Origin: an uncultured Candidatus Saccharibacteria bacterium
Lineage (GTDB): Bacteria; Patescibacteriota; Minisyncoccia; Phycocordibacterales; UBA918
NCBI GenBank assembly: GCA_964353135.1
Contig: CAYGTV010000001.1
Coordinates: 309,497-373,496 of the forward strand
Length of the DNA stretch: 64,000 bases
Reading direction: 5' to 3'
Part shown: in pieces, positions 18,201 to 40,600 of the stretch
How positions within the stretch are numbered: the first letter of the stretch is position 1
Layout of the letters: each line of letters starts with the position of its first letter
Program-made: the position numbers and the translations under genes
The notes under the pieces: model-generated
What the model was told of the DNA's origin: nothing
The model's database searches: none
What the model saw: the letters and a program-made list of their open reading frames with translations, nothing else

Positions 18201-18392
18201 CGCACCGGTATGGTTGTTTCCTCGAGCAGACCCGTTTGCTGTACTATCAATCACCACCACGGCAGCATCAGCTATTTGAGGTGAAAATAGTCGGGAAAAA
18301 GTTGTTACCCCAAGTAAATCAAACAACAAAACTATCAGCAGAAAACTACTGAGTAATGTGCGTACATGAGTAAAATTGCGCAGTTGTTTCAT
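12249..18392 (-). CDS. Giant secreted or surface protein (2047 aa). It carries two ~340-aa internal repeat modules containing 'THYHWRNDDGSE.GATSATAG.QDT', and a conserved C-terminal domain ending ...VVYRIKVTEDQAQGDYIANITYIATPVF.
   Basis: 6.1-kb ORF with an N-terminal hydrophobic segment (LLSSFLLIVLLFDLLGVTTF). The C-terminal ~180 aa are homologous to the C-terminus of the 24604..25743 protein. Confidence 0.85.
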   Translation of the reverse strand: MKQLRNFTHVRTLLSSFLLIVLLFDLLGVTTFSRLFSPQIADAAVVVIDSTANGSARGNNHTGAQTVFISDTVGYTFYQDSPGSCVYSKTTDAGSTWTAAVTIDAQTDCIRIVVWYDRWTPGDSGSTIHIATMDTSDDDLFYNALDTSTDTLLLGSSPVNATVSSGQTPTFTDAINTHAITKATDGDIYLTSNDNSDSYVVSCAASCGTGTNWIEVGTSPLDARNDHNLLMPLAGGNVLLINQDISANEVRSKVWNGSTWSGTWTSIDNNAPENSEYDGAMSATVDLSTNNIYFAYVADNNLLTDNNDDVRTAIYDGSVWTLMTDVVTNITGRGILDTAIAIDQNNGDVYVAYAVQDTPGSAGTGNIYFKESTDAMTSWGTETGPLNTTPGDIRKPALDPSNYDRLYVAWWEGSVSDRFGETLANIGPDSNLSTLGTQVATLRSETTNNYIGGQFVINSLTSNTVSDITIRENGTVDGSTAFANVRLLYDLDSSAPYNCASESYSGGESQFGSTDTDGFDAADGQILFTGSSVGVGPTQAICLYVVTDITSSAGDGQTIEIEITDPPNDVVVTGSDIAPNFPVTLTDTTTVISPDVTQTHYHWRNDDGSEAGATSATAGNQDTPRGALPIGQTTRLRMGVSVEGSTSSSPIIYQLEFAEAAPTCTDVTVWTAVGAADDQFNMQPTVNLTEGSDTTNIANGIGGVTDENAVFKTPNAGVRDSTDTTGSITLATNEFLELEFSLVASTSATEGATYCFRLSNSGADLNAYDVYAQATINAEVTVSQTGTQQATVDIPSADLYFGGAFVIRENTASNTVTDITIAESGSIDATTGLTNIRLLYDLDTTAPYNCVSETYSGLEPQFGSTDTDGMSDINGSSTFSGSVTILTTQAMCVYVVADVTDAALNGDTVSFAILSANSDVIVPGASVSPSTPVELGGVTTLQGAILTQTHYHWRNDDGSETGATSATAGSQDTLLPDHQIATPIRLRMQVSNEGATTSVERVFNLEYAERVTSCSAIAVWTDVNAELGDAWDMYDSTNLVHGADVTNIPEVDGGVADENVSLINPNSGIRETSSATASTTITELEFAEFEFSLTSTVASAFNTTYCFRLSRQGIDINQYDQYPEVSIAAKRDFKVQQGNSVLTGTTQTITAGVDYTAPASSSLAFIRITNTNNTGAGNTTGGGSQDVLGVTAYVQNPDNIVSSITFARNAVVADTYVDWEIIEFIAQPNTDNEMLVRDANTVSMNTGQVTISGPAVSVTDDADVVVFVTGVSGDDAANDFYAAQVTADWDGANNRPVFTREATGGSNINISYAVVEYTGINWNIQRVEHTYTAAGVIETETITPVTSLDQAFIHSQKRVGAQTTVATLGHQVYLSSIGAVSFELNAAANMGVVHTSVAWVIENLQAGAGAMRVERQNGTTIGGAEPTTLSLVIVNALDAINNSSIFGNSSANGNNNAHPRAIAGLRIVNPLRYELWRSDTGTQLQYRAEIVQWPVADLAIRQNYYRFYTGNNQLTPDDAWPAGLEDLGENTSITEFDDPPGVGEILRLRMTLRAKNANWPADFYAFKLQYAERVSTCTAIGSWTDVGQAGSGEIWRGYAATGTTDGTVLSGDPPTPGDLLISVSDVAGSLEHQNQSATNTYIAFDGEDVEYDWYLEHNGAAADTVYCFRVVESDGSALSGYLQYPQLRTADFTPEVIGWRWYDDIQNETPSTPLEALNSAPTEIISQDTLALRVVLDEQKSVTGENVKFKLQFSDEITFSNPIDVVASSSCTISNEWCYIDGGGANNATITTAITGISDTCVAAGGGGCGTHNSSADYVAGHDHPALAAQEYSFTIQSQRLRSSAVYYFRLFDVASAKPVALFSTASYPAAVAESARLVFTIEGLPAATSTAGVTTGVTTTATSVDFGVLPFGTDVIAAQRLSVDTNAVEGYQVWKLAGQQLTNGGGSEILPIASTNASPGGWSTVCTALAASCVGYHTTDATLAGGSPRFAATDTYAAFDTTVSEVMYSSIPVDEAHDVVYRIKVTEDQAQGDYIANITYIATPVF
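14950..17050 (-). repeat. Two diverged tandem ~1.05-kb intragenic repeat units inside the 2047-aa gene.
   Basis: Compare gcaccagcttctgaaccatcgtcgtttcgccagtgatagtg (~16557-16597) with gcaccagtttctgaaccatcatcgttacgccagtggtagtg (~15500-15545). Both encode ...DDGSEAGATS/THYHWR in the translation. Confidence 0.5.
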
Positions 18393-24603: not shown

Positions 24604-25743
24604 TTAGAAAACTGGGGTTGCTACGTATGTCAGCGTAGCAGTGTAATCGTCAGCAGCTTCCTGAAGAGAAGTCACTTCGATTTTGTACAGCACCTCAGCA
24701 GTTCCTTCTCCAGGATTGGTCGCATCTGCTGGACCATCATGTCGAAAGACTTCTACTGGTGTAGTTGAGGCAGAAACAAAGTTTACTCCCCCACTGTACA
24801 GATCTGACAGACCAGCTGTCAGCGTATCATCACTAGATGTTAGTGCCCAGTGACCAGCTTCATTTTCAGCTCCAAGAGAACCACTAGGTGATGCCCAAGG
24901 TGCAGGTGTCGATGTAAAGTCACCGTCGGCGAATCCATCGATATCTGCTCCGTTTGAAGATGTTAGCTGTTGATCTGCAGCAACTGTTACAACAAAGCCG
25001 TTTGCGGCGTTAGTTGAAACTGTTAGTGATTGCGCTGCAGTTGTTGCGTTGTCTGCTACCAGTTCACCGAAAGGAATTTCAGTGGCTGTAGACGTTTTAC
25101 CAACTGGATCTGATCCAATGGTTGTCACATCACCTCCAGCAATACCAGATACCGTAAAGGTAAAGATGGTATCAACTGTGGCAGTGACGGTAACAGCGTC
25201 AACGATTGCTACTCGAGTTTCACCAGAGTCAACTGATCCCGCAGTAACATTGATTTCGTAAGAAATCCCGGCTGTTGCTGGATTAGTGATCTGGTTTACA
25301 CCACTATCAGCGTTTAGACCGATCTGGATGATAACTTCCTGTCCTGCTCCAACTGTACCTGTACCGGAGGTAAAGGTAATGCCGGTTGCAGAGGTTGTTG
25401 CTCCCCAGGTTGCACCAGACGGTGCAGCTGCCAGAGTTACATCTGACCCATTGATGTTGAGATCGAGATCTCCTTCATCTAGAGCAGCGATTCCTGTGAA
25501 AGCGGCATCAAACGTAAGTGTGATGGTTTCACCAGCAGCTACTCCGGTTGGAGTAACAAATTCGATTGTGTGATCTGACACAACACTCGGTGCTGAGTCA
25601 GTCAACGTGTTGCTAAAAGTAGTGACATTTGCCGCCTGCGCGAATTGCAGGGTTGGAAAGCCAAGTGACCACATAATGATCGCAAGACTTGCAACTAAGG
25701 CGGTTGCTTGGAGTACAGAGAACGCATAGTTATTGCGTGACAT
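24604..25743 (-). CDS. Secreted 379-aa T/S/G-rich surface protein whose C-terminal ~180 aa are homologous to the C-terminus of the 2047-aa protein (ends ...VLYKIEVTSLQEAADDYTATLTYVATPVF).
   Basis: Signal anchor: MSRNNYAFSVLQATALVASLAIIMWSLGFPTLQFAQAA. Its N-terminal region (TFSNTLTDSAPSVVSDHTIEF) resembles the N-terminus of the 60993..62885 protein (QFSDTLSDSGPNEQSNHTMRF). Confidence 0.75.
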   Translation of the reverse strand: MSRNNYAFSVLQATALVASLAIIMWSLGFPTLQFAQAANVTTFSNTLTDSAPSVVSDHTIEFVTPTGVAAGETITLTFDAAFTGIAALDEGDLDLNINGSDVTLAAAPSGATWGATTSATGITFTSGTGTVGAGQEVIIQIGLNADSGVNQITNPATAGISYEINVTAGSVDSGETRVAIVDAVTVTATVDTIFTFTVSGIAGGDVTTIGSDPVGKTSTATEIPFGELVADNATTAAQSLTVSTNAANGFVVTVAADQQLTSSNGADIDGFADGDFTSTPAPWASPSGSLGAENEAGHWALTSSDDTLTAGLSDLYSGGVNFVSASTTPVEVFRHDGPADATNPGEGTAEVLYKIEVTSLQEAADDYTATLTYVATPVF

Positions 25744-27449: not shown

Positions 27450-28394
27450 TTACCCTAACCGCTTACGTCTCATAAAGAGGAAGTACAGCACAGCAATCAA
27501 CAATGCAAAGATCGGTAGAAGTAGCGAGACCTTGTGAGCTATAGACAACCCTGCAAAGCCAAATCCTGCAGCTTGGACGGTACCATATGGCTGCACACTA
27601 AGAGTAAGGTCGCCTTCTTGCTTTAAATCGTCACCGTTAAACACACGATAGCGTGCAATGTAGCTTCCAGCCGGCAGCCTAGTTGGCAGTTCAGCAGTTA
27701 CTGTATCTGTATCGTATGGTGAGACTTTTGCTATTTTACCTATGTTTTGCACTTCTTCGAGCAGAGCTTGGCCTGAGCGATCAAATATCCTAAATTCAAC
27801 TCGTGACGGAGAAATGTCAACGTTACCAGTATTTTCAATCAGCATATCAAACCGGATTTTACCTGGGAAAAACAACCAACCAAATTTAGTTCCTTCATTG
27901 AGTTCAGCAACCGAGATTTTTCTAACCCTGAAGTCTTCTATCTGCCTATCAATAACAGTCAAGGCAATGTCTACACGAGCACCAAGCGAGATGTTAACTG
28001 AACCACGAGCGATGTCTTCATTCGCTGGCAGAGTTCTAATACGGATCGAACCAGTATATTCTTTGAATTCAGCGTCAGCTGGTACAAGCACACGTACGGT
28101 CATAGGAACTTTCTGTAGTCCTGAGGGTAGCTGTATCGGTGTTCCTTCAACAATCTCAAGCCATCCAGCTAGCTCCGGAGCGTCGATGACTATCTCCGCT
28201 TGCTGAGGAGCGGTTGGATCGCTACGAACCAAAAGAATCTGTTGTTCGTAGATTGAATTTCGTGTAAGGCTAGTATTCTTTACGTAGGGCGGTGTAATAC
28301 CAAATCCGGCGTGCACCTTAGCTACCCCCAGGCTCGCAAAGAGAACAGGTACAAGACAAAAAAGCACTAGGAACGTACGGAGTAACCCATTCAT
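27450..28394 (-). CDS. DUF916/DUF3324-like surface protein paralog: signal peptide, beta-rich ectodomain, C-terminal TM + RRKR tail.
   Basis: MNGLLRTFLVLFCLVPVLFASLGVAKVHA. ...FDMLIENTGNVDISPSRVEFRIFDRSG...GSYIARYRVFNGD...VSLLLPIFALLIAVLYFLFMRRKRLG. Its stop lies 3 nt before the next gene's start. Confidence 0.7.
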   Translation of the reverse strand: MNGLLRTFLVLFCLVPVLFASLGVAKVHAGFGITPPYVKNTSLTRNSIYEQQILLVRSDPTAPQQAEIVIDAPELAGWLEIVEGTPIQLPSGLQKVPMTVRVLVPADAEFKEYTGSIRIRTLPANEDIARGSVNISLGARVDIALTVIDRQIEDFRVRKISVAELNEGTKFGWLFFPGKIRFDMLIENTGNVDISPSRVEFRIFDRSGQALLEEVQNIGKIAKVSPYDTDTVTAELPTRLPAGSYIARYRVFNGDDLKQEGDLTLSVQPYGTVQAAGFGFAGLSIAHKVSLLLPIFALLIAVLYFLFMRRKRLG

Positions 28395-28432: not shown

Positions 28433-28481
28433 CAACAACCTCCGTTGGGATAACGGAGGTTGTTTTTCTGCTTTTTTGTTG
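28433..28481. terminator. Strong 13-bp hairpin between two minus-strand genes. The T-tract is on the plus-strand side, so it could be an antisense-blocking terminator or a leaky attenuator.
   Basis: caacaacctccgtt-gggat-aacggaggttgtt (28433-28464) followed on the plus strand by tttctgcttttttgttgc. On the minus transcript the hairpin is preceded by an A-tract and followed after 11 nt by GGUUUUUUUGCGG. Confidence 0.4.
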
Positions 28482-28485
28482 CTTA

Positions 28486-30420
28486 TTATTGCCAGTCGAC
28501 TGCTTCAGCTGTCACACCAAAGAATGTGTTGAGTCCTGTATAGGCCCCGGCCACATTAATCGCACTCGGTACCGCGATACCCCAGAATGTTTCATCTGTC
28601 TCTGGTGTTGTCGTACTAGTAGACTTGATTACGTTAAGTTCTAGCTCGGCTGGTAGAGCAACCGTTGTGGTTGGTAGGGTTTGAGCAAACGGACTGATGT
28701 AGGATACGGCTGTTGTGGCAAATTTTTGGTTTGAAGTAAAGATAGTCGACGTACCATTCAAAGAACAGTCAGACGATGAGGATACAAAACCTGGACACAT
28801 CGCTGAACCATCCAACAATTGGTCAATCCCGGTGTTACCAATGTTGATGATTGTTGTAGAGGTACTTAATGTTCCTGTGTTATCACCTGGAGCTAGTGCT
28901 CCATATGGGATAACCGCTGTTAGCAAATCAATATACGGTGCACTAGTTAAATCTACCGGGAAATCAGTAGCCACTTGAGAACTTGTTGCAAAGTTATCAT
29001 CTGCGCCTGCAACAGCTGCGATCCATGCGTCTCCAGCAAACGAAGCGGGGGTATTTGGCCCAGCGTCTGTTGGATCAGCCAAGAACCAAAGTGGGAACGT
29101 ACAGTTAAATACTTGGGTCTCATCTGTTGGACCGGTACAACTTGTGCTAGATGCTGTACACGATAGCTGCCAGACATCAAACGGTACTCCGTTAGTGTAA
29201 CAACCGTTTGGGTTGTAATCAGCATTTTGCGGATTACAGTTAGTTGATGTTGAGTAAGCACCAGATGGACCAGAGCGTAATACAGATACCTCAAACCCTA
29301 CAATTTCATCACCCGCAGAGGCATTTTCACAACTGTTCGCGTCTGAGACTGTAAAGTCTAATCTAAAGCCAGTCGTTGTACCTCCTGGTGACGTTAATGT
29401 TAGATCACCAACTCCATCAGTGTCTGCAAGGAAGATGTCACTACCCTGGAGCGTCGGTGCGACGTTTGCTACTTCAAAGTTGGCTTGAATTGGGTTTGCT
29501 GCAGCTTCATGTCCATGCTCATCAAGTAGGAATACAAATGCGTCATACACACGGTCACGAACTGGAATTGCTATGGTTGTTGTAGCGGTAACGTTAGGGT
29601 TTGCTGGTACAGAAGTTGAGGCAATAAAGTTAGCATCACAGTCGTTTGTCACAGGATTATAGTCGATAGCGGCACCACAAACTACGATTGTCATAGTGTC
29701 TGTTCCACCAACAGTGTCAGGATCCGATGAGGTTGAGAGGAATGTTAGAAGTGCACCAGGATCTACTGGTCCATCGTTGTACGCGTTAGTTAGTACCGGA
29801 CGGCTGTTTACGTTAAATGGTGAAGAACTTGATGCTCCAGGTCCAAATAGCCCTTGTGATGGCGTTGGGTTACATTCAGCTTGTACCGGATCGTCATCAC
29901 ATACCCACGCGTACCATTCGTTACTTTCAGCAAACAGTGACGCTGTGGCAGCATCAACTGTAGTTGTTGCAGCAAAGGCAGCTTGCAGGTTAGTGGTTGA
30001 GGCAGATACGGCCCATTGAATTGCTCCTACCCCACATTCAGGAGGTGCAGTTCCAAGAGAGCTTGGGTTAGCAGCTTCATTTGCAGTAGGTGTCGCGTTT
30101 GTACTACACACCAAGAGGAAGTATGGTGCGCCGTTACTGTCGTTGCCTACTGCTGTCCACTGAATCACATCACCAGAGTTAGTTGGACTTGTCGTCGAAG
30201 AAGGTATTACCTCTGTTGGAAGAGTATCAAACGTTGGAGGTGTGTTTAGCACAGTCAAACTGGTGGTTGCAGTCTGTGCGGATACTCGTTGGAATTCTTG
30301 TTGACCAACATCCACCATAAAGGCAAATAGAAAGACAGCTAGACCAGCGACGGCTGCTAGGACTGATATTTTACCGGCTGTTTTCATATAATGTGGGAAG
30401 GCTTCTTTGTTGTACGACAT
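28486..30420 (-). CDS. 644-aa Cys-containing surface protein with an N-terminal signal anchor. Its C-terminal ~250 aa are homologous to the C-terminus of the 8058-aa giant (ends ...TFWGIAVPSAINVAGAYTGLNTFFGVTAEAVDWQ).
   Basis: TM: ISVLAAVAGLAVFLFAFMV. Shared blocks with the giant's C-terminus: ADPTD.., LD(V/L)..AI.YG.., (Y/F)WGI(E/A)VP...TG.N.FF. Possible alternative start at the internal Met (30387). Confidence 0.75.
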   Translation of the reverse strand: MSYNKEAFPHYMKTAGKISVLAAVAGLAVFLFAFMVDVGQQEFQRVSAQTATTSLTVLNTPPTFDTLPTEVIPSSTTSPTNSGDVIQWTAVGNDSNGAPYFLLVCSTNATPTANEAANPSSLGTAPPECGVGAIQWAVSASTTNLQAAFAATTTVDAATASLFAESNEWYAWVCDDDPVQAECNPTPSQGLFGPGASSSSPFNVNSRPVLTNAYNDGPVDPGALLTFLSTSSDPDTVGGTDTMTIVVCGAAIDYNPVTNDCDANFIASTSVPANPNVTATTTIAIPVRDRVYDAFVFLLDEHGHEAAANPIQANFEVANVAPTLQGSDIFLADTDGVGDLTLTSPGGTTTGFRLDFTVSDANSCENASAGDEIVGFEVSVLRSGPSGAYSTSTNCNPQNADYNPNGCYTNGVPFDVWQLSCTASSTSCTGPTDETQVFNCTFPLWFLADPTDAGPNTPASFAGDAWIAAVAGADDNFATSSQVATDFPVDLTSAPYIDLLTAVIPYGALAPGDNTGTLSTSTTIINIGNTGIDQLLDGSAMCPGFVSSSSDCSLNGTSTIFTSNQKFATTAVSYISPFAQTLPTTTVALPAELELNVIKSTSTTTPETDETFWGIAVPSAINVAGAYTGLNTFFGVTAEAVDWQ

Positions 30421-30513: not shown

Positions 30514-31728
30514 TTACTCATACCGGATTGCGTCGAGCGGGTTGAGAGTGGAAGCTCGCCTAGCGGGGAAAATTCCGGTTAAATACCCAACCCCGGCCGA
30601 GAAAATAGCAATAAATGCTAGGAAGTCTAGTGGAAATGAGAATAAACTCACGGCCTGACCCCCAAATTGACTTGCGACAATATTAAGGAATATATTTATA
30701 GCTAATCCGAACCCAACCCCCATGAGTATCCCTGTCACGCCCCCTAAGAACCCCACCACAACTGATTCAGACACAAACAGGTATTTAACATCATTTGGTG
30801 ATGCACCAATTGTCCTCATGATTCCGATCTCTTTGGTTCGCTCAAGCAACGTCACCGTCATGGTGTTAAACATTCCAATAGCAGACACAACTAAAGCAAT
30901 ACCTCCGAACGTGGCCAGAACTGCCTGCACCCCCTGAAAGATTTTTGAGGCTTGTTCAACAGTTTTAGAAAGTGCCGTAACGCGGAACCCTTGCTCTACC
31001 AATGCAGCTTCAACTAAGGGAAGACTCTCATTGTCTATGACATTAACCTGGACTCGTTCATATTCATCGATACCAACGTAGTTACGCAGTTCTGGAAGCA
31101 TCATCATAGCGTTAAGTGTTCCAGCTTCTTTGGTAATACCACGTACGATATATTCTTTCTCAAGGATAATCTCATTCACATCGTCACTACCATCATCAGC
31201 TGGTACCAACAATCTGAACGCTACCCGCTCTCCGATAAATGCCTCTGCGTCCTCGTCGGCAATCCCAAACAATTTGAGTGTAGCCGGAGAGAGCATCACT
31301 GAGGTGGTATCCTCAATATCCTCTTCTTCAAACACCTCACCATAACTTGCAGTAATACCGGCATACCTCAGGTACGGTGGCTCTACTCCCTGAATAAACA
31401 CATTACCAGTTAAGCCTTTGTAGGTTACTAGGGCTGGGAAACGTGCCAACGGTGCGGCGTCAACCACAGCCTCATTGTCTTCAAATCGACGCACCACGTC
31501 TGGTGTCAACGCTAAACCTTGAGCACCGGTTGCTGATACACCTAAAGACAACAATGAATCTCCAAACACGATCTGCTCTAGAATAATCTGCTGCAAACCA
31601 AAGCCAAGTCCTACTAAAATTACTACCGCAGCAGTTCCCACCCCCATACCTAAAATCGTTAACCACGTACGAAGTGGGTTAGTTTTAAACATTCGGGTAG
31701 ACAATTGTGCTAAATCTTGAACTCTCAT
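30514..31728 (-). CDS. ABC transporter permease, MacB/FtsX-like (N-terminal TM, large extracytoplasmic domain, three C-terminal TMs).
   Basis: LRTWLTILGMGVGTAAVVILVGLGFG ... C-terminal FtsX region: ALSKTVEQASKIFQGVQAVLATFGGIALVVSAIGMFNTMTVTLLERTKEIGIMRTIGASPNDV...YLTGIFPARRASTLNPLDAIRYE. Confidence 0.85.
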   Translation of the reverse strand: MRVQDLAQLSTRMFKTNPLRTWLTILGMGVGTAAVVILVGLGFGLQQIILEQIVFGDSLLSLGVSATGAQGLALTPDVVRRFEDNEAVVDAAPLARFPALVTYKGLTGNVFIQGVEPPYLRYAGITASYGEVFEEEDIEDTTSVMLSPATLKLFGIADEDAEAFIGERVAFRLLVPADDGSDDVNEIILEKEYIVRGITKEAGTLNAMMMLPELRNYVGIDEYERVQVNVIDNESLPLVEAALVEQGFRVTALSKTVEQASKIFQGVQAVLATFGGIALVVSAIGMFNTMTVTLLERTKEIGIMRTIGASPNDVKYLFVSESVVVGFLGGVTGILMGVGFGLAINIFLNIVASQFGGQAVSLFSFPLDFLAFIAIFSAGVGYLTGIFPARRASTLNPLDAIRYE

Positions 31729-31729
31729 A

Positions 31730-33052
31730 TTATCCTTTGTAACTTACGTCTACTCCCTGGGCAATAATTTTTTCAAAGTAACGAGTCATATCGTCTGCTT
31801 CGGACTCACTGAGGCCTAAACCTTTTGACCTAACCCCTTTCATCAACCTCTCGTTTAATTCAGATTCATCAGCCACACCAGTCACGCGGTCAGCGATTAG
31901 TTCGGTCATATTGTCTTGTTGCTGCTTACTCATCTTGATTCGATGTTCCTGAGCCAAATGTTCTTGCATTCGTTCGGCTAGTTTATCCTGGGTAAAGAAT
32001 ACTGCGTCGTTATCTTTTTTAGCCCGGAATCGGCGGATATCATCAGCAGTATGAATCACTTTCTCTACCACGCCGGCCATGTGTCGCGCCTCTTTTTCAG
32101 ACACCTCTACCCCGCCACGCTCCATTGGTAGGATGAGGCTCTTGATGAAGTGTTCGCGATCAATTCGACCCTGCAAAAAGAGATCAACTGCGTGTTCAAG
32201 TCGACCAATTTGGTCAAAACTATAGTCCTGAGTCAAGAAATTGACCATACTTTTCACCCGCCAGGTTTCTACCGAGTCATACGGATATAACCGTGCAAGT
32301 TGTTCTAGTTCAGTGACAATCGTTTCGCCTTCGCGGACTGGTTTAATTTGCTTTCGCTGCGGGTTCACCACCTCGCGCAAAATTCGGCCGTCTTTTAGGT
32401 AGTACACCCGGTGAGCGTAACTGAGGTGAGCAGCGTTGTGAGACACCATAATAATCGTTCGCTTATCAAACGTATTAATCTCGTCAATCTTGTCCATCAC
32501 CTGCTGAGTAGATACTGAGTCAAGGTTACCGGTAGGTTCGTCTGCTAAGAGAATTTTAGGGTCATTAACCATTGACCTGGCTACCGATACACGCTGTTGC
32601 TGCCCCCCTGACAGCATCGCTGGGATCTTGTGGGAGACGTGCCCTACACCAAAGCGGTCGAGTAGTGATTGAGCTCGACGCTCTCGTGTCGCTCGGTCGG
32701 CATTACAAAAAATCATCGGCAGCGCTACGTTGTCGAGCACTGACAAAGACATAATCAGGTTGAAAGACTGGAAAATAATACCCATCACGTGACGCTGGAA
32801 ATATACCCGCTCTGAAGGTGGATAAGAATACACGTCATCTCCTTTCACGAGCAGAGTCCCCTCACCTGGCGGCAATGATCCCTGGATCGAATACATGAGT
32901 GTGGATTTACCACAACCAGACGGCCCAAACAAAATAATGTACTCACCCTCAAAAATATCAGTGTTAACCCCAGTAAGAGCCTTGAATTCATTGGACTTTC
33001 CTTGGTTATAAATGATCGAAAGATCACGTGCTACGATGAAAGGTTTTGCCAT
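31730..33052 (-). CDS. ABC transporter ATP-binding protein (MacB-type partner) with an unusual ~210-aa C-terminal helical extension.
   Basis: Walker A: [14 protein letters not shown]. Signature: [14 protein letters not shown]. Walker B: [13 protein letters not shown]-loop: [10 protein letters not shown] verified at 33052..33050 ([15 protein letters not shown]), 1 nt after the upstream stop. The extension from ~aa 245 to the end has no recognisable motif. Confidence 0.85.
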
Positions 33053-33053
33053 A

Positions 33054-34652
33054 CTACGCGCCGATGTTTTGAACCCATCCGAAGGTCGCTTCGAAGTTTT
33101 CAAGGATTAAGTCAATAATGTTTTTTTCCTGTATTGGTGTAAACAACACAAAGTTCTCAGACTGAATACTATTGCCAGCCTCATCGCTACATGTGATGTA
33201 GAACTGGTATACAGTGGCCGGTCCAAAATCAACTACTACTTCCACGTGTGACGTACTGTATTGAATCAATTCCTTCTCAACCGTAAACGGTTCGGTACCG
33301 CCAGCTACACCCTCCTGGTATGTCAGCAGACAGGACGATGGTTCATCGGTATCCCACTCTATAATGGTCTGAATGCGAGACTCACTACCAGGAAATAGAG
33401 TCGATTCGTTAGTCACATTAGTAATAATAGGCGCCGCAATGTCACGCACTGTAATAAACTGAATTGGCTGACTTTTTACTCGGTCACCACCTGAGTTTTC
33501 AGACGTAACAAATGCTACGTACCGCGTTCCCAGAGTCAGGTCAGCCAGCCGCATTTGGTGAGTCGTAGCGAGCGTTGGGCGACCAACCGAGTTCTGAGCA
33601 CCAGTGGTTAAATCCTGGAATTCCACGAGTGCCTTGGCTGGTACAGTGGTTTCCCACGCTAGGGTGGCAGCGTCTTCTTCAACTTTGACTACTCGTAGGT
33701 TTCGAATATCAGGAGCGGTGGCTTTGGTTTGAAAGGTAAAGTTTCGACTTTCCCCGGTTATGCCCACTTCGTCAGTAGAAATGACCTTGAAGCTGTAGTC
33801 AGTAAAGGGATCTAGTCCAATGAGGCGAATTTCGTGCTCAGTTGTATTCCCGCCGGTAGATGACTGAGAAAATTCATAATTTACACCATCAAACCCATTG
33901 GAGGCTGAAAAGCGCACTTCTGAGCTGGCTGCGCGGTCAGTCGTCCATTTGACTAGCGCCGAAGTAGTTTCAGGAATAACAGTTGGTGGACCGACGATCG
34001 TCAGGTCTTCGGTAATTCCTTGGATGGCTTTGACTGTTTCATTTATAATTTCTTGTAACTTTTGTGGGTCTGTAATTTGGTTAATTTGTTCGATAATCCG
34101 TAGTGTTGCCAAAGAGTCATTATTGAGCTCTTCGGTAGTAATTTGTGACTCTGGATCAGGTCGATTACCATCACCCTGCCCAGTACCATCATTTGGACCA
34201 TTTCCATTATTTTCTCCGGTTCCAGCTTGTGGTGGACCACTGGTTTCAATTCTGTAGTCAGCTGAGATTCCTTGGTTTCCGTTTTCGTCTGCCGAGACAA
34301 CCCGAAAATAGTAGGTTCGACCAGCCTCTAGTCCGTCGAGAGTGACTGAGTGTTCTGTTCGGTCAGTTTCGGGAATACGGACAATACCGTAGTTTGGCTG
34401 CAAGCCATAGTTAACAGCTGAGTCAGCCTCTTCATCAGTTTCCCAGGTAATAGTGACGCTCGTTTCGGTAACGTTTGTAATTTGCAGGTTGTCAATTTCA
34501 GGAGCTTCTCGATCGTTTGACTGAGCAATTACAAATTGCGGCATTAAACTCGCCATCAGCAATGTGACACAGAGAAGAGGTGTGATTAAAGATCGAGTTT
34601 GCATTACTGTAATCGTATCACGGACAGCTCGTTGTTTAGTTGAGTAATTCAT
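33054..34652 (-). CDS. Secreted protein with four fibronectin type III (FN3) domains and a Gly/Asn/Thr linker.
   Basis: Signal: MQTRSLITPLLCVTLLMASLMPQFVIAQS (alternative start at 34604). FN3 units: ITNVTETSVTITWETDEEADSAVNYGL...TYYFRVVSAD; ...ALVKWTTDRAASSEVRF...YSFKVISTD; ...ATLAWETTVPAKALVEF...RYVAFVTSE; ...IIEWDTDEPSSCLLTY...YQFYITCSD. Confidence 0.75.
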   Translation of the reverse strand: MNYSTKQRAVRDTITVMQTRSLITPLLCVTLLMASLMPQFVIAQSNDREAPEIDNLQITNVTETSVTITWETDEEADSAVNYGLQPNYGIVRIPETDRTEHSVTLDGLEAGRTYYFRVVSADENGNQGISADYRIETSGPPQAGTGENNGNGPNDGTGQGDGNRPDPESQITTEELNNDSLATLRIIEQINQITDPQKLQEIINETVKAIQGITEDLTIVGPPTVIPETTSALVKWTTDRAASSEVRFSASNGFDGVNYEFSQSSTGGNTTEHEIRLIGLDPFTDYSFKVISTDEVGITGESRNFTFQTKATAPDIRNLRVVKVEEDAATLAWETTVPAKALVEFQDLTTGAQNSVGRPTLATTHQMRLADLTLGTRYVAFVTSENSGGDRVKSQPIQFITVRDIAAPIITNVTNESTLFPGSESRIQTIIEWDTDEPSSCLLTYQEGVAGGTEPFTVEKELIQYSTSHVEVVVDFGPATVYQFYITCSDEAGNSIQSENFVLFTPIQEKNIIDLILENFEATFGWVQNIGA

Positions 34653-34655: not shown

Positions 34656-37600
34656 TTAATCAGTGATAGCCATAAAGAAGTTGGTTCCTGTATGTGGTGA
34701 ACTTGCTGTACCAAACGGAACCTCAATCCCCCAGTAAATTTGATCACTAACAACCGGAGTGCTGGCTACAGGTTTTTGTAGGTCAACTTCTAAATCAGCC
34801 CCTGTCACAGCTAGTGTTGAGCATCCGATACACGCAGCATAGTCAAACGTTGAGGTTGAGTAGCGCTGTTGAGCTGCTGGGATAACCGAGGTAATACCAT
34901 CAGTCATGTCGGTTCCAGCAACCTGTACGTCAAGTGATTCGTTACCCAGGTTGACTAGCGTCACAAATGGATTGAACGCTCCCGTGTTCTGGTTGATGTC
35001 TACAGTCCCATAAGCAATGGCATTTTGAACATCGAGAGCTCGAAGTGTTAGGACATCAACCCCAACTGAACTACCAAAGGTATTTGCTCCAGAAAGATCT
35101 TCAACCTCCATAAATGCAAACCACTCTTGAGCACCATCCTCATCTGTAGGGTCTGCGTGGTAAGCAAACGGCGCTTCACAGATCAGTGAACATGAGTTGC
35201 CAGAACAATTAACGTAGCTACATGAGCTGGTGGCGATATAACAGTTGTTGTCATCGGGTGTACAGGCTGCCCCAACAGATGTCTTGTAGAAGGTAGTGGT
35301 GGCTGAACCAAGATCGGCAAATCCGTTAAAGTCAGTCACTGTACTTGAAGCTATAATCGTGGTTGTGGCACCTGGAGTCAGACTGATGTCAAATCCATCA
35401 TTGAGTGTTACGGCTGAAATAATTGGATCAAATGCCAGCGTTAACTCTGGGAGATTGCTGTATGAATCCAGGGTAGAGCCATCATCAGTCACCCGGAAGC
35501 AGTATGCGTCATTGCTGGCATTAGCAGTCAGTTGCAAGGCGTATTCTAGCTCTGTGTATCGGTTTTGATCGAGGTCATAGAGAGATGTTTGGTTACTTGG
35601 ACTAGTTACAATTTCTCCAGCTGCAAAATCACCAGCATCAGTGACTAGGTGGTCTGTGGTCGGGTCACCGTTGGTGACGTTTGGCGAAGTAGCCATACAA
35701 ATTGCGCTACTTCCACAGCTTGCAATGTTAGGAACTTCTATGTAATTAGCCGGATTAACTGCTTCACAGGTTGGAGCGGTCAGCTTAGGAGCGAATTCTA
35801 GCTGGAACCGTTGGTTTTCAATCGGCAGTCCTGAGTTTTCAATCGCAAGTCGCAAACGGGCAGTCTCTCCAATCAAGTACCCCCCAGTTGGAGTGTTTTG
35901 AGGATTTGCCCATGTAGCACCTCCATCAACTTGTTTATCTCCCACATATACCCGCGGCCTGGTTTCGGTACGAGGATACGCTACATAGCTATCCCAACCA
36001 CCATTTTGGAACCAGTATGCAAATCCGATGCCACCAGATGTATATGTACTGTCAGTTGCAGTTGTGGTTGCAACCAATTGCCCGGTTGATTCAAAGTACA
36101 CTGCGACGTCGATTGTGTCGTCAGTTTCCCAATCAACGTAGAACTCATACCAACCAGATCCAAACGATCCACTGGTAAAGTTTGCTGGTGATGTGCCTAG
36201 AATTGTTCCAGAGAACTCTGTATTGGCTACGTTACGTACTATAGAGATTCGGTCAGTTCCGATCTGATCAGTACAAATTGCATAGTTTTGATTACTTGCA
36301 ACGGATCCATTTGATGCAAAGATAGTACAAACTTCATCTCCGGTTCCAGAAACAGTATCGATATACTGCATAAATCTAATCGTTTGACCTTGTGAGACAG
36401 TTACATCACTTCGTGCGATTCCGTCAGTTGTTCGATCACCAGTGTTCACAGCTCGCAATGCAAACCCTCCACCATAGGCAGGAGCACCGTTATCAAGCGC
36501 ACTTTCAGTCTCAAAACGAGCAATGTCTCCAGTACCACCGGTGTATTCAGCAATATCATTGTCTTCAAAATCTTCTATCACATCAAAGACGTTTGCACCA
36601 TTACTAGTTGAGGTTGCAGAAACATTTCCGAAATACATGTAGAACTCTGACACACTGTCAGCAGGAAGAGTTGGAGCTTTGATCCAAACAACTGCGTCAG
36701 TGCCGCTGTTGAATGCTTCAATCCAATGGTCAACCAAGGTTACTCCATCCGCAGCTGTAAACCGCAGATCTTCAAAGTCTGACTGCATATCTGCATCATA
36801 TGCTACCGGAATTTTTACAGCGGTGTTTGTGTAAGTCGCAGGATCATCGTTTACGACTCGCACTCGTTGACGAGCTGACCAGTCAGTATCAAACCACTCA
36901 CTATCTAGAGCACCTTCACCTCCGTCATCGTTGCGCCAACGGTAGTTTGTTTGTTCAGTTAGTAGACATTCACTGTCGTCCCAACGGATTGAACTACAAT
37001 CATCCACCCCGTCAACATCAAACGCCTCACCCCAAAGGTTACCGAGCGAACCAGTAAAGCTCCAACTGTTAGTAGTAGTTGCATCAAGCGAAACGTTTAC
37101 TCCGCCAGTGAAGCCACCAGTAGCAAATCCGGTGTTGGCTACCACTACCGAAGCATTGTTATTGATAACACCTGAGACGAGTGTAATGAGGTTTGTGTTA
37201 TTAGCCGCCTGCGTAAAGTAGCCGTTACTGAGTGAAGTAACATTGGTCGTACCAGATATATCTAGTCCGTTTGCAGTTAAATCAGTGATGTTATAGAAGT
37301 TCGCGTTGAGTGTTCCGCTAGTAGCTATCAGATCATATGCGCCGACTCCCTGGTTTTGTACTGACGTGCTAGCCGTTAGAGTACCAACTATCTGCAGACT
37401 GCCACCAGCTAGAGTCACCGCTGAACTACTTGCAATGTACACATTGGCTTGTCGTGGTGACCCGATCACAGCACCGTCAAAGTCAGTAGCAGCGCTCCAG
37501 TATTCGGTTGTGGTTCCAATACGGTAATCGCCATAAATGTAGAGATCGCCATCAACCCCTGCATGATCCTGAGAGTAGAACGACGAAGTTACTGGCACAT

Positions 37601-40600
37601 TGAGCGTAGTTGCACTAGTGTTCCAACTACTGACATCGGTATTCTCGCCCAACGTTAGGATATCGTATGACTCGGTGGCTGTAACTTTGACGTTTGTTTC
37701 GTACTGATTGCCCCCATCAAGCACCAAGGTTGTCCCGGTCCAGGTAGTAGCAGCACCGCCAACCGTGTTTGTAAATACATTCCCTACGTATACCCGTGAC
37801 CCTGGATTTACCGTAAATGTCCCGGCATTTGTGATTGCAAAGTTATTGGTGGTAGTTGCATTGTCGATCAGTGTCCAACCACCAGCCCCAGCAATCACTA
37901 GGTTGTAGAGGTCGTTTGCGCCTGGGTCGATAAACTCACCACCATCGGCTGAGTTAAACAACAGTGTACCCAAACCGTTGTTGTATACCCCACCAGACAC
38001 ATCAAACGACCCGCCAATTGACACGGTTCCAGTACCGACAGTAAGTGCACCGTCAGAAAGAGTGAGGTTGCCAAGTAATGCGGCAGAAGGATCGGTCAGG
38101 GTGTAATCGCCACCAGTAGCAGTAACAGTCAGGTTTGTCAGGTCGTTGCCGCTCAGAGTAATGATATTTCCGCCAGTGGTACCAACCACTTGAACTGTAC
38201 CGCCATTGTGTGTGATCGTGTCAGTAACCACAAAGTCTTCTCCCACAATCAGCGTACCGCTAGGCAACGTTACAGTCCCGGTTGCAACGGTAAATGATTG
38301 CGTGGTAGTCGCAACAACGTCTGCAAAACTCCACGCACCGACGCCTGAGAATAGAACCGTATCTGCGGTTGACCCCCCAAATCGAACGACGTTACCAAGG
38401 TCAGTCGCAGTAAAGTACAGCACACCACCATTAGCATCAAATGACCCACCAGTGTTTTCAAACGATCCGGCTACCGTTGAAGTTCCAGTTGGTAAAGTCA
38501 GATCACCATTACTAATGACAACATCATTACCGGCAGTAAAGGTTGGATCGGTAATTGTCCAATCACCCGAACCAGAGAAAGTAACATCGAACAGTACCGC
38601 TTCGTTAAAGTCTAGGGTTCGGCCAGCACCGGCAGCTGTAAAGTCAAAGGCTGATTGAGCTGGGGCCAACAGTGATCCGGCTGCGGTAACAATGTCTCCA
38701 CCAACACTATGAGTTTCTCCATTTGCAGCTATGTAATCAGCGCCTGTTAGCAACTCGAGCGAGCCATCATACGACGAACCACTTCCCCCACCACTAATGG
38801 TTACATCACCACCTGGCTGGAAATTTTTGTTTGCCCACACCAAGAGAGTAAAGTCAGCTGGCAAAGTCAATGTATCGGTTCCAGCGTCAACCGCAGTAAA
38901 CGGAATATCAGCATCGTCACTACTGTCGTAGACCGACATAGCTGCAATCGTTTGCGCCCCTGCACTCTCATGTCGAACAATCACGTGATTTTCGTACAAA
39001 TCCATGTCACCAATCAGTGAGATCGGGTCTTTGGAAACTGTTGCCGCCTGAATCGCCTCACCATCAATGTACACAGTTAGAGTGTCACTTGGACCAAAAC
39101 CAATATCGGTAAAGGTGTAATCCCCTGTACCGACCGCACAAGAAGTTGAAGCAAAGGTTAGACCTTGGATACTCAATCGTAGATTGTTAGTAACACCATC
39201 ACAGATAGTTGAAATGGCTGATCGATCGTTTTGGTACACCGTACCTGAGATATCAATAATAGCGGCTGAGTCTGTCCACACAAGATATCCTGGATCTCCT
39301 CCTGGGTCGACGTCTTTTGCTTCACCATCAAGGTTACCGTCAACGTTTACAAACCGCCACGAACTGATACTGGTTCCTGTTGCCGTCACGTTGAAGGCGT
39401 TAATGGTAGTGGTTGTCGCAAACCGGTTATTAGTAAAGTTTTTAGCTGGATTTGCCCCAATCACACTACCACCAACCGTCATCGCAGACCCACCTGCAAA
39501 TGCGACCTCAAAGTCTCCCCGTGAGAGATCAACGACGTTTGGTGTCCCGGTAAGAACCAGTCCGTCAGACACAATGTCGCGTACTGTGTAGTACTGCATA
39601 TCGACAGTTGCGGTTCCTCCAATAGTCATACTGTATGGACCAGCACCTTGAGCCATAATTGTTGTACTGGCGGTTGAAGTACCAAGCACCGTCAATGATC
39701 CGCCGGTATACAGCACACTACCCCCATCCTCAATGCGAACATCTGCTATACGAGGTACCCCGAGAGTTGCTCCATCAAAGTCAGTCGCATAACTCCAATG
39801 ATCAGCTCCAGCAGCACTAATGAAATCACCATAAATAAGCAGATTTCCATCAACCCTTTGATGATCCATTGAATACAATGAACTGTTTGGTGCCGTAGTT
39901 ACTACAGTTGTAGTTGAGTTCCAGAGTCTTGGGTGTGTACCCGCCTCAGTCACGATAGTGTCATAGGTATCACCAGTTGCTTTTGTGTTGATTGTAAACG
40001 CAGTGCCACTGGTTAGTTTAAGGGTAGATCCAGTCCAAGTTGTAGCTGCGTCAGGCATCAAGTTACTAAAGTTACCGGCAACAGATAGAGTCAGACCAGG
40101 GTTCAAGGTAAACCCAGTCACAGAAGCACCAAGTGAGGTGCGTCCAGTGGTAGTAGCACTTTCAACAATTGAGTAATTTGCAGCACCAGTGATGTTGAGC
40201 TTTCCAAATGGTGAATTTCCGGCAGCAATAGTAGCGCTTCCACTAGTGCGCGCAAAGGTGGTGGTTCCGTTATTTGCAGTAAATACACCGTCATTATTCC
40301 AACTTCCATTAACTGTCATTGTTCGGATATCACTAGCAATCAACGTACCAAGCGTTCCAATTGACACATTTGCACCCACCGACACGGCTGGATCATTGAT
40401 CGTTGCATTCAAGGTAGATGTACCAAGCACACCAACCCTCAAGTTATTGAGTACCTGTAGTCCGGTAATTGGTGCCGTAGCATTAACGACACCACCCCGA
40501 TCAGTATCAATCACTAAGTTGTAATAAGGAGTTTGGCGTACATTTGGAGTTGCTCCACTGTAACGGATGGTACTGATGTCTTCGAGAAACGAACCAGTTT

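What the first reader, a model, noticed from the sequence alone, without database searches (positions are those of the whole stretch)
28486..29240. Conserved Cys-containing C-terminal domain type 1 shared by the 8058-aa giant and the 644-aa protein
The C-terminal ~250 aa align in several blocks: ADPTDEDGAQEWFAF/ADPTDAGPNTPASFAG; LDVQNAIAYGTVDINQNTG/IDLLTAVIPYGALAPGDNTG; IYWGIEVPFGTASSPHTGTNFFMAITD/TFWGIAVPSAINVAGAYTGLNTFFGVTAEAVDWQ. The 644-aa gene lies immediately downstream of the giant's operon. This is a second cargo-type C-terminal module, distinct from type 2.
Basis: seen in the sequence. Interest (0 to 1): 0.55.

Follow-up and report, generated by a model that had tools for sequence, protein, structure and literature searches.

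The report
Shared pilin-like C-terminal docking module
The giant 8058-aa surface protein and the nearby 644-aa protein end in the same unannotated two-domain module, which recurs in ultra-small bacteria and archaea next to a membrane-anchored partner and probably docks these proteins on the cell surface.

Summary
The two tails align at 27% identity over 199 aa (BLASTP E=2e-13), and the Smith-Waterman score is about 17 SD above composition-matched shuffles.

The shared unit is about 300 aa and has two domains. D1 is a Cys-rich cadherin-like Ig domain. D2 is a 165-aa beta-sandwich.

It matches no Pfam, NCBIfam or PDB sequence. It is nonetheless a large family: 1,725 clusters at 50% identity, and in 206 of 210 proteins checked it ends at the extreme C-terminus.

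Forty of the 50 best PDB fold matches of D2 are donor-strand-exchange fibre subunits (CfaB, Caf1, Pap, Fim, Csu, TasA, archaeal CanA).

Module proteins come as a larger and a smaller one beside a conserved protein built as signal peptide + two Ig-like domains + C-terminal transmembrane helix (window ORF 27450-28394). This holds in 80 of 80 Paceibacteria loci and in 5 of 7 divergent loci, including Woesearchaeota archaea.

A second parallel set in the window uses a domain resembling the Pam-pilin C-terminal domain.

Best reading (0.5): a surface docking or assembly module that works by beta-strand complementation, analogous to WxL/WxLIP and chaperone-usher/Pam systems. I could not test the complementation step. 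The "cargo tag" reading is not supported.

The parts
28489..28995 (-). D2 of the 644-aa protein (residues 476-644): C-terminal beta-sandwich with a pilin-like fold. This is the core of the finding.
   Evidence: HMM hit E=8.6e-64. AF2 model of D2 alone has pLDDT 90.1. Forty of the top 50 Foldseek PDB hits are donor-strand-exchange fibre subunits.
28996..29409 (-). D1 of the 644-aa protein (residues 338-475): Cys-rich cadherin/Big-like Ig domain that ends in the near-invariant ADPTD...W...D motif.
   Evidence: HMM hit E=5.8e-54. AF2 model of the two-domain module has pLDDT 89.4. ADPTD is the most conserved segment of the family. Members give weak Big_9 and Cadherin_5 hits.
34659..35087 (-). D2 at the extreme C-terminus of the 8058-aa giant (residues 7916-8058).
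   Evidence: HMM hit E=4.8e-39. BLASTP to the 644 tail E=2e-13.
35097..35396 (-). D1 of the giant (residues 7813-7912).
   Evidence: HMM hit E=1.8e-18.
28486..30420 (-). 644-aa gene: N-terminal hydrophobic anchor (residues 14-32), two further Cys-containing Ig-like domains, then D1-D2. This is the 'small' partner of the pair, expanded in this lineage.
   Evidence: Orthologues are present in 80 of 80 Paceibacteria loci.
34656..58832 (-). 8058-aa giant surface protein: N-terminal signal-like segment, LamG/pentaxin/DUF2341 domains, and a C-terminal D1-D2. This is the 'large' partner.
27450..28394 (-). p314: signal peptide, near-invariant mature N-terminus GFGITPPYV, two E-set/Ig-like domains, C-terminal transmembrane helix and basic tail. 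Proposed membrane-anchored partner of the module.
   Evidence: It lies directly downstream of the 644-like gene in 80 of 80 loci. Homologues lie next to module proteins in L002, L087, L088, L089 and L090.
30514..34652 (-). fn3 protein (33054-34652), ABC ATPase (31730-33103) and MacB/FtsX-type permease (30514-31728), between the giant and the 644-aa gene. They are lineage-specific companions, not part of the core.
   Evidence: Pfam hits. Present in 62-74 of 80 Paceibacteria loci, at about 79% identity for ABC and FtsX. Absent from the divergent loci.
28434..28464 (-). Stem-loop with a 13-14 bp stem just after the 644-aa stop codon, followed by a U-run. It is a terminator or attenuator between the 644 and p314 genes.
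   Evidence: In 70 of 80 related loci the best hairpin has dG <= -15 kcal/mol, and stem sequences differ between loci while pairing is kept (read by eye, not counted). No Rfam family matches.
11243..18392 (-). Parallel 'type 2' set. The 2047-aa protein (12249-18392) has a C-terminal domain that matches CPR_Pam_pilin_C. It is followed by a 329-aa paralogue of p314 (11243-12232).
24604..25743 (-). p379: small protein whose C-terminal domain is homologous to that of the 2047-aa protein (type 2; resembles the Pam-pilin C-terminal domain).
   Evidence: BLASTP E=3e-17. NF058581 hits in p379 and its orthologues, E from 6e-6 to 2e-3, all below the curated cut-off.

Best explanation
The shared tail is a previously unannotated two-domain C-terminal module of secreted surface proteins. 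D1 is a disulfide-rich cadherin-like Ig domain. D2 is a beta-sandwich with the fold of donor-strand-exchange fibre subunits.

I propose it is the cell-proximal docking or assembly end of these proteins. The giant adhesin and the smaller 644-aa protein would use it to join each other and/or the adjacent membrane-anchored protein p314 (signal peptide, two Ig-like domains, C-terminal transmembrane helix), through edge-strand (beta-strand) complementation. The rest of the giant would then project away from the cell.

Functionally this is the same logic as three known systems: the small WxL / large WxL / WxLIP clusters of Firmicutes; the C-terminal pilin domain of chaperone-usher tip adhesins; and the Pam pili of CPR (Candidate Phyla Radiation) bacteria.

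Shown here: the homology, the two-domain fold, the C-terminal position, the size of the family, the gene triad and its recurrence across distant lineages.

Inferred, not shown: the physical interaction with p314, the strand-complementation mechanism, and which end of the giant faces the cell.
For: 1. Real homology, found only at the two C-termini.

2. The family is large and position-specific. There are 1,725 clusters at 50% identity with E<=1e-3 and 773 with E<=1e-30. In 206 of 210 proteins D2 ends within 12 aa of the C-terminus, in proteins of 189-2645 aa.

3. Fold. The D2 model has pLDDT 90. Forty of the top 50 PDB matches are donor-strand-exchange fibre subunits: CfaB 4y2n_C (E=1.6e-3, probability 1.0), CS17, CS20, Caf1, PapA/PapE, Fim subunits, Csu (TM 0.47/0.51), CupE, the TasA fibre, TLP-1 and archaeal cannulae CanA. 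The whole module best superposes (highest TM-score among the hits) on the tandem pilin fusion CfaB-CfaB 3f84_B (TM 0.39/0.40, probability 0.99) and on other pilus adhesins.

4. Triad. In 80 of 80 Paceibacteria loci the 644-like gene is followed directly by a p314 homologue, and 56 of 80 loci show both D2 copies; most of the remaining 24 loci appear to be cut short upstream by the contig or flank limit, which I did not tally.

5. In unrelated gene contexts, a small protein (signal peptide + D1-D2 only, about 300 aa), a larger protein ending in D1-D2, and one or two p314 homologues again lie together. This holds for the Woesearchaeota loci L002 and L087 and for the bacterial loci L088, L089 and L090.

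6. In L087 one called gene encodes a p314-like ectodomain, two hydrophobic segments and then D1-D2. That places the module next to the membrane and next to p314-type domains.

7. The window has a parallel set: a 2047-aa protein and a 379-aa protein share a different C-terminal domain, and a p314 paralogue follows the 2047-aa gene. That domain matches the Pam-pilin C-terminal model over its full length (E=1.1e-8). In Pam pili this domain accepts a donor strand (preprint 10.64898/2026.03.03.709456).

8. The giant's N-terminus looks like a cleavable Sec signal (KQRKK, a hydrophobic core, then SYA/Q; my reading of the sequence). A mature giant would therefore need another means of attachment.
Against: - No interaction was modelled or measured.
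- The fold matches are weak (TM 0.41-0.51, E from 1e-3 to 0.2). Whether D2 lacks a strand or has an open groove could not be inspected.
- D2 does not match NF058581, WxL, TasA or any fimbrial Pfam model. Profile-profile comparison with the Pam-like type 2 domain is not significant (P=0.011, probability 3.8%).
- The D1-D2 linker is not especially conserved, unlike the donated linker of Pam pilins.
- p314 gives only generic E-set hits (CopC, CARDB, Wzt_C). It matches no PapD-like or WxLIP model.
- Two divergent loci, L091 and L092, show no p314 homologue beside the module protein, though both contigs are short.
- The 644-aa protein has an N-terminal anchor of its own, so its module could equally be the distal end.
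Confidence: 0.5

Rival explanations
1. It is a true usher-less pilus. The small module protein polymerises head-to-tail by donor-strand exchange into a shaft. The giant, through its C-terminal pilin-like D2, is the tip adhesin incorporated first. p314 is the membrane-anchored chaperone or terminator, like PamC/PamD/PamR.
For: - D2's structural neighbours are pilus shaft subunits, and the two-domain model resembles CfaB-CfaB and CfaE-CfaB.
- The N-terminal sandwich + linker + C-terminal Ig-like domain architecture, with paired cysteines, is that described for PamA and PamB.
- p314 has the architecture described for PamC/PamD/PamR: Ig-like domains plus a C-terminal transmembrane helix.
- Small proteins begin, right after the signal peptide, with a conserved orphan strand-like segment ([ST]x[ST]VTVGN[SA]xP) that resembles the CfaB donor strand (my reading of the sequences).
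- A conserved terminator-like hairpin follows the 644-like gene, as after major-pilin genes in pap/fim operons (the pap/fim comparison is from my own knowledge).
Against: - In this window the 'small' protein is 644 aa with an N-terminal membrane anchor, which is awkward for a polymerising shaft subunit.
- The linker is not conserved.
- There is no sequence relation to Pam pilins.
- No oligomer was modelled.
Confidence: 0.2
2. The module is the distal, host-binding tip. Both proteins are held by their N-terminal hydrophobic segments, and D1-D2 is the adhesive end that contacts the host cell. p314 is an unrelated neighbour or a co-receptor.
For: - Both proteins have N-terminal hydrophobic segments. 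The 644-aa one is followed by a long spacer before any Ala-x-Ala site, which suggests an uncleaved anchor.
- The tails evolve faster (about 46% identity) than ABC/FtsX (79%) or p314 (61%) across the same 80 genomes, as expected for exposed surfaces.
Against: - The same module would then have to bind hosts in organisms as different as Paceibacteria and Woesearchaeota, yet its most conserved motifs (ADPTD, GNxGLD, WGIxxP, GxYxGxN) are shared by all.
- Small proteins consist of nothing but a signal peptide and the module, so they would have no anchor.
- The L087 fusion puts the module next to the membrane.
- The linkage with a transmembrane partner recurs.
Confidence: 0.12
3. D1-D2 is just a pair of structural Ig-type stalk domains spread by domain shuffling among surface proteins. 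It has no specific docking role, and the neighbourhood conservation reflects vertical inheritance of one cluster.
For: - D1 is a generic cadherin/Big-like domain, and related Ig domains recur inside the 2047-aa protein.
- The 80 syntenic loci are orthologous, so they amount to one observation.
- L091 and L092 lack a p314 neighbour.
Against: - D2 occurs once per protein and ends within 12 aa of the C-terminus in 98% of cases. It is never seen as an internal repeat.
- The small + large + p314 arrangement recurs in five loci with otherwise unrelated gene content, across bacteria and archaea.
Confidence: 0.1
4. It is a C-terminal secretion or sorting tag ('cargo' domain) recognised by the adjacent ABC/FtsX transporter, in the manner of T1SS or T9SS C-terminal signals.
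For: - The ABC ATPase and the MacB/FtsX permease lie between the two module genes.
- They are the most conserved genes of the cluster.
Against: - The transporter is MacB/FtsX-type, not a T1SS exporter.
- Both proteins have N-terminal Sec-type segments.
- ABC/FtsX genes are absent from L002, L087, L088, L089 and L090, which keep the module pair and p314.
- These organisms are thought to have a single membrane, so no outer-membrane step is needed (from established knowledge of these lineages).
- The module is far larger than known tags.
Confidence: 0.05

Closest known systems
WxL / WxLIP cell-surface clusters of Lactobacillales and Bacillales (PMC10599100)
   Same: - Gene-cluster logic. A small protein is only a signal peptide plus the domain. 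A large protein carries the same domain at its C-terminus behind functional N-terminal domains. A partner protein has two Ig-like domains and a C-terminal transmembrane helix.
- In WxL the partner is predicted to insert a strand into a gap of the WxL sandwich.
- The C-terminal pattern WGIxVP...GxYTGxNTF loosely recalls the distal WxL motif.
   Different: - No match to Pfam WxL, WxLIP_PGBD or WxLIP_HBD.
- There is only one W-x-[IL] motif.
- The module has an extra Cys-rich D1.
- Hosts are CPR bacteria and DPANN archaea rather than Firmicutes.
- The archaeal hosts make peptidoglycan binding unlikely as the common function (my inference).
- No WxL chain appears among the top 50 fold matches of D2.
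Pam pili of CPR bacteria (PamA/PamB pilins, PamC/PamD chaperones, PamR anchor; bioRxiv 10.64898/2026.03.03.709456)
   Same: - Same kind of host: CPR bacteria.
- Two-domain subunits: an N-terminal sandwich with paired cysteines, then a C-terminal Ig-like domain resembling chaperone-usher pilins.
- No usher or trans-envelope machine.
- Partners with Ig-like domains and a C-terminal transmembrane helix.
- The window's 'type 2' C-terminal domain does match the NCBIfam Pam-pilin C-terminal model.
   Different: - D2 (type 1) does not match NF058581. HHalign against the type 2 domain is not significant.
- Pam pilins are reported mainly from Saccharimonadia and Microgenomatia, with conserved ATP-synthase neighbours. 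This cluster is in Paceibacteria and has fn3/ABC/FtsX and cohesin/dockerin neighbours.
- Here the module sits on proteins of up to 8058 aa, and it also occurs in archaea.
Chaperone-usher pilins and two-domain tip adhesins (class 5 CfaB/CfaE, Caf1, PapA/E/G, FimA/H, Csu)
   Same: - These are the best structural neighbours of D2.
- A C-terminal pilin-type domain that joins an adhesin to the fibre is the chaperone-usher rule (FimH, PapG, CfaE; established knowledge).
- The C-terminal GxYxG...aromatic strand pattern resembles the pilin F-strand motif (my reading).
   Different: - Only fold-level similarity (TM 0.4-0.5, 7-18% identity).
- No outer membrane, no usher, and no detectable PapD-family chaperone.
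- A missing strand in D2 has not been demonstrated.
TasA/TapA fibres of Bacillus, TasA-like proteins, and CanA cannulae of Pyrodictium
   Same: - These are donor-strand-complemented fibres of single-membrane bacteria and of archaea.
- They are among the D2 fold matches (8aur_A probability 0.99; 9ikj; 9h8b; 7uii).
   Different: - No Peptidase_M73/TasA Pfam hit.
- The domain order differs, and in those systems the donor strand is N-terminal.
- Whether a SipW-type peptidase gene lies in the cluster was not examined.

Membership tests
WxL domain (Pfam PF13731) | Match to the WxL profile | tested here: not met
   No WxL hit for the 644-aa protein, the giant tail or any of 44 family members.
WxL domain (Pfam PF13731) | Two Trp-x-Leu motifs within a C-terminal domain of 160-190 aa | tested here: not met
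   There is one conserved W-G-[IL] about 30 aa from the end. The second conserved Trp is a terminal D-W in the 644 type only, and the giant type lacks it.
WxL cluster organisation | A small protein (domain only), a large protein (C-terminal domain) and a partner with two Ig-like domains and a transmembrane helix, all in one locus | tested here: met
   Seen in L002, L087, L088, L089 and L090, and in the window itself. The partner does not match the WxLIP Pfam models.
CPR Pam pilin (NCBIfam NF058581 CPR_Pam_pilin_C) | Match to the Pam pilin C-terminal domain model at or above 55 bits | tested here: not met
   D2 proteins give no hit at E<=0.1. For comparison, the window's other C-terminal domain (type 2) scores 35.3 bits, E=1.1e-8, over model positions 2-148 of 148, which is still below the cut-off.
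CPR Pam pilin | Linker strand donated to the C-terminal domain of the next subunit | not testable with these tools
   This needs multimer modelling or cryo-EM. The linker is not among the most conserved segments.
Chaperone-usher pilin fold | Ig-like pilin fold | tested here: inconclusive
   Forty of the top 50 Foldseek PDB hits are donor-strand-exchange fibre subunits with probability up to 1.0, but TM is only 0.41-0.51 and E from 1.6e-3 to 0.2.
Chaperone-usher pilin fold | Incomplete sandwich (missing G strand) completed by a donor strand | not testable with these tools
Chaperone-usher system | PapD-family chaperone and outer-membrane usher encoded nearby | tested here: not met
   There are no PapD or usher Pfam hits among the cluster proteins. 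p314 gives only generic E-set hits, plus one weak ASH (PapD-like) hit at E=0.0076 in an archaeal homologue.
TasA / camelysin (Peptidase_M73) | Profile match | tested here: not met
   No Pfam hit. There is only a fold-level match to the TasA fibre 8aur_A (E=7.8e-3, TM 0.47/0.36).
C-terminal secretion tags (T1SS signal, T9SS CTD) | Dependence on, and co-occurrence with, the cognate transporter | tested here: not met
   The neighbouring transporter is MacB/FtsX-type. It is absent from five divergent loci that keep the module.

The most novel reading that the evidence does not exclude
D1-D2 plus the p314 family define a previously unrecognised surface-assembly system that has no usher and works by strand complementation. 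It is shared across the bacteria/archaea divide by the two great radiations of ultra-small episymbionts, CPR/Patescibacteria and DPANN/Woesearchaeota. It would be the means by which their giant adhesins are mounted on the cell. Together with the Pam-like 'type 2' set in the same window, it would show that p314-type membrane-anchored Ig proteins are the common chaperone or anchor of a whole superfamily of such systems.
Probability: 0.35. Interest if true: 0.8.

Novelty: new variant of a known kind. Interest (0 to 1): 0.62.

Why it matters
CPR bacteria and DPANN archaea live attached to other cells, and many encode enormous surface proteins. How those proteins are held on a cell that is thought to have a single membrane is unknown.

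This work gives a concrete and testable handle:
- a defined 300-aa module, present in more than 1,700 protein clusters;
- a defined partner gene;
- a recurring three-gene arrangement found in both domains of life.

If the docking model holds, the module could serve several purposes. It would be a marker for adhesins and host-interaction loci in metagenomes. It would be a target for localisation and pull-down experiments in the few cultivated episymbionts. It would also be evidence for exchange, or common ancestry, of surface machinery between CPR and DPANN.

Finally, it extends the very recent discovery of donor-strand pili in CPR to Paceibacteria, and possibly to archaea.

Tried and rejected
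- phmmer with default filters missed the pair, probably because of the bias filter. With --max it gave E of 6e-9 to 8e-8.
- Pfam, NCBIfam, single-sequence PDB search and profile PDB search gave no family for the module.
- My impression from sequence patterns that D2 is homologous to the C-terminal domain of p379 or to WxL was not borne out. HHalign of D2 against p379 gave probability 1.8%. A broader D2 profile against the type 2 domain gave P=0.011 and probability 3.8%, with only the IPYGxLxPG / IPFGxL motif aligned with any confidence.
- HHalign of D2 against p314 and against p350 found nothing.
- I tested the idea that the D1-D2 linker is a conserved donor strand, as in Pam pilins. The linker is among the less conserved segments.
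- p314 against PDB sequences and Pfam gave only generic E-set hits. It could not be assigned to PapD-like chaperones or to WxLIP.
- A search for further p314-D2 fusion proteins among 348 collected proteins found none. L087 remains a single case.
- Foldseek of D2 against viral structures was uninformative.
- Rfam search on the hairpin after the 644-aa gene found nothing near any gathering score.
- Two further divergent loci, L091 and L092, had no p314 homologue next to the module gene. The association is therefore frequent, not universal.
- The small locus L006 showed two adjacent module proteins but was cut by the contig end.
Full report
**1. The observation**

The window carries a long run of minus-strand genes. 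The 644-aa ORF is 28486..30420 and the 8058-aa ORF is 34656..58832. The finding's coordinates cover the last 251 codons of the 644-aa ORF.

BLASTP of the 644-aa protein against the last 699 aa of the giant gives one strong local alignment: 59.7 bits, E=2e-13, 27% identity over 199 aa.

The Smith-Waterman score is 184. Full shuffles give 46 +/- 8 and shuffles within 20-aa blocks give the same, so z is about 16-17. When the 644 tail is slid along the giant, the best match is at the giant's C-terminus only.

**2. Anatomy**

Alignment with homologues shows that the shared unit is longer than reported, about 300 aa.

AlphaFold2 on a 44-sequence alignment gives a confident two-domain model (pLDDT 89.4, pTM 0.84).

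- D1 (644-aa protein residues 338-475; giant 7813-7912) is an Ig-like sandwich. It has six cysteines in long loops and ends in the near-invariant motif ADPTD...W...D.
- D2 (residues 476-644; giant 7916-8058) is a beta-sandwich of about 165 aa. Its conserved motifs are IxYG, GNxGLD, Q-x-[FY], K, WG[IL]xxP and GxY[TS]GxN.

HMMs built for each domain find them once in each of the two proteins and nowhere else in the window.

**3. A large, unannotated family**

Pfam, NCBIfam and PDB sequence searches, with single sequences and with profiles, return nothing for the module.

- A word-indexed search finds 52 relatives. All are hypothetical proteins, and those that carry a source name are from Paceibacterota or Kaiserbacteria.
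- An exhaustive profile search over 1.84 billion cluster representatives finds 1,725 proteins at E<=1e-3 and 773 at E<=1e-30.
- Among 210 collected proteins whose D2 is complete, 206 have D2 ending within 12 aa of the C-terminus (median distance 0). Those proteins range from 189 to 2645 aa.

The module is therefore a dedicated C-terminal unit, not a repeat.

**4. Fold**

The whole-module model gives moderate matches to many tandem-Ig structures. The best superposition (highest TM-score, though ninth by E-value) is the CfaB-CfaB pilin fusion 3f84_B (TM 0.39/0.40, probability 0.99). Other pilus adhesins (CfaE-CfaB, CupB6, FimH, Saf) and WxLIP also appear.

D2 modelled alone (pLDDT 90.1) gives a much more specific list. 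Forty of the top 50 PDB matches are subunits of fibres assembled by donor-strand exchange:

- class 5 pilins CfaB, CS17 and CS20;
- Caf1, PapA, PapE, Fim subunits, Csu, CupE, SafA and HdaB;
- the TasA fibre and TasA-like proteins;
- the archaeal cannulae protein CanA.

The scores are modest (best E=1.6e-3; TM 0.41-0.51). I therefore treat this as a fold-class assignment, not as proof of homology. A search of viral structures was uninformative.

**5. Genomic context near and far**

In 80 species-level genomes of Patescibacteria (most of those whose records give a finer name are Paceibacteria, Kaiserbacteria, Nomurabacteria or Parcubacteria; many are labelled only 'Patescibacteria group', 'bacterium' or 'uncultured Candidatus Saccharibacteria') the order of genes is conserved: giant(...D1-D2), fn3, ABC ATPase, FtsX/MacB permease, 644-like(...D1-D2), p314, a dockerin protein, p379, p350, a cohesin protein (also L001 and L005).

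The p314 homologue follows the 644-like gene in 80 of 80 loci. Both D2 copies are seen in 56 of 80; most of the remaining 24 appear to be cut short upstream by the contig or flank limit, which I did not tally.

These loci are orthologous, so they count as one lineage. The decisive evidence comes from divergent loci:

- **L002.** This contig is archaeal. It encodes RNA polymerase subunit L above the NCBIfam cut-off, and homologues of its module protein are named Woesearchaeota. It encodes a 307-aa protein that is only a signal peptide plus D1-D2, then two p314 homologues (E=2e-22 and 5e-16 to the window protein), then a 793-aa protein ending in D1-D2.
- **L087** (Woesearchaeota), **L088, L089 and L090** (bacterial). 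These repeat the pattern of a small protein, a larger protein and a p314 homologue, among otherwise unrelated genes.
- **L006.** Two adjacent module proteins, before the contig ends.
- **L087 fusion.** One called 601-aa product consists of a p314-like ectodomain, two hydrophobic segments and D1-D2.
- **L091 and L092.** These short contigs show no p314 homologue beside the module gene. The link is frequent but not universal.

The ABC and FtsX genes are absent from all the divergent loci.

**6. The partner, p314**

It has more than 1,600 relatives. Across the 80 genomes it is more conserved (median 61% identity) than the module tails (about 46%). Sequence methods give only generic E-set hits.

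**7. A second, parallel set in the same window**

The C-terminal 160-186 aa of the 2047-aa protein (12249-18392) are homologous to the C-terminal domain of p379 (24604-25743), at E=3e-17.

That domain matches NCBIfam NF058581, the C-terminal domain of Pam pilins of CPR bacteria, over the whole model. The 2047-aa tail scores E=1.1e-8 and 35 bits. The p379 orthologues score E from 6e-6 to 2e-3. All are below the curated 55-bit cut-off.

The gene directly downstream of the 2047-aa gene (11243-12232, 329 aa) is a paralogue of p314 with the same architecture (BLAST E=3e-7, HMM E=4e-6).

So two different C-terminal domains, each shared by a large and a small protein, are each paired with a p314-family protein. 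One of those domains belongs, distantly, to a family for which donor-strand acceptance has been shown by cryo-EM (preprint 10.64898/2026.03.03.709456).

Profile-profile comparison of type 1 D2 with type 2 is collinear in its motifs but not significant. I leave their relationship open.

**8. Mechanism proposed**

I commit to the following. D1-D2 is a docking or assembly module at the cell-proximal end of these proteins. It joins the giant and the smaller paralogue to each other and/or to the membrane-anchored p314 by beta-strand complementation.

Three known systems work this way:

- the C-terminal pilin domain of chaperone-usher tip adhesins;
- the Pam pili.

| Status | Statements |
|---|---|
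| Shown here | Homology, fold class, strict C-terminal position, family size, recurrence of the triad across distant lineages, the parallel Pam-like set |
| Inferred | The physical contact, the strand complementation, and the orientation of the giant |

Confidence is about 0.5.

A stricter version, a true polymerising pilus with the giant at the tip, gets 0.2. The alternatives get less, for the reasons listed with each rival: a distal host-binding tip 0.12, generic stalk domains 0.1, and a secretion tag for ABC/FtsX 0.05.

**9. Novelty**

The literature I could search notes large DUF2341-containing proteins in Patescibacteria but does not describe this module or the triad. Pam pili were reported only in 2026 and mainly from other CPR classes.

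The module fails the sequence tests for WxL, Pam pilin, TasA and chaperone-usher families. It shares their fold class and their cluster logic. I therefore rate it a new variant of a known kind.

The presence in both CPR bacteria and DPANN archaea is the most surprising element.

Noticed in passing
window 12249-18392 (-), 24604-25743 (-), 11243-12232 (-): There is a second 'large + small + p314-like' set. The 2047-aa protein and the 379-aa protein share a C-terminal domain (E=3e-17) that matches NCBIfam CPR_Pam_pilin_C over the full model, below the curated cut-off (35 bits, E=1.1e-8). The 329-aa gene just downstream of the 2047-aa gene is a paralogue of p314.
   Followed up: partly
window 28434-28464 (-), between the 644-aa gene and p314: A stem-loop with a 13-14 bp stem lies right after the double stop codon and is followed by a U-run. 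Equivalent hairpins (dG <= -15 kcal/mol) follow the 644-like gene in 70 of 80 related genomes; stem sequences differ between loci while pairing is kept (read by eye, not counted), and a GUUAUCC-type loop recurs. It is probably a terminator or attenuator that sets the ratio of 644 to p314 expression. No Rfam family matches.
   Followed up: partly
L087:12368-14173 (+), Woesearchaeota contig: One called 601-aa gene encodes a p314-like two-Ig ectodomain, two hydrophobic segments and then D1-D2. This may be a 'Rosetta-stone' fusion of partner and module, or two unseparated genes. It is a single case so far.
   Followed up: partly
window 20256-23481, 26346-27446, 60993-62996 (-): A set of cohesin and dockerin proteins surrounds the module genes: cohesin in the 592-aa and 251-aa proteins, and dockerin in the 251-, 366- and 667-aa proteins. 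The 366-aa and 667-aa proteins are paralogues (43% identity over about 260 aa). This suggests a cellulosome-style plug-in surface scaffold in a CPR genome.
   Followed up: no
window 9688-11340 (-): A 550-aa protein combines a LytR_C domain with a region that matches the p314-family HMM (E=1.7e-9). The same region gives a weak WxLIP_PGBD (DUF916) hit (E=0.009). This is the only sequence-level hint linking p314-type domains to WxLIP.
   Followed up: no
window 30514-33103 (-): The MacB/FtsX-type ABC transporter between the giant and the 644-aa gene is the most conserved part of the cluster (about 79% identity across the 69-74 of 80 genomes that have it). It is absent from divergent module loci, and its role here is unexplained.
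   Followed up: partly
window 26320-26351: A perfect 14-nt inverted repeat with a 4-nt loop overlaps the stop-codon end of the 366-aa dockerin gene and extends just beyond it. It is likely another terminator that divides the cluster into transcription units.
   Followed up: no
L088:6340-9927 (+): In this 1195-aa protein D2 is split by an insertion of about 290 aa (HMM positions 10-125 at residues 775-879 and 127-156 at residues 1166-1194). D2 therefore tolerates a large insertion before its last strands.
   Followed up: no
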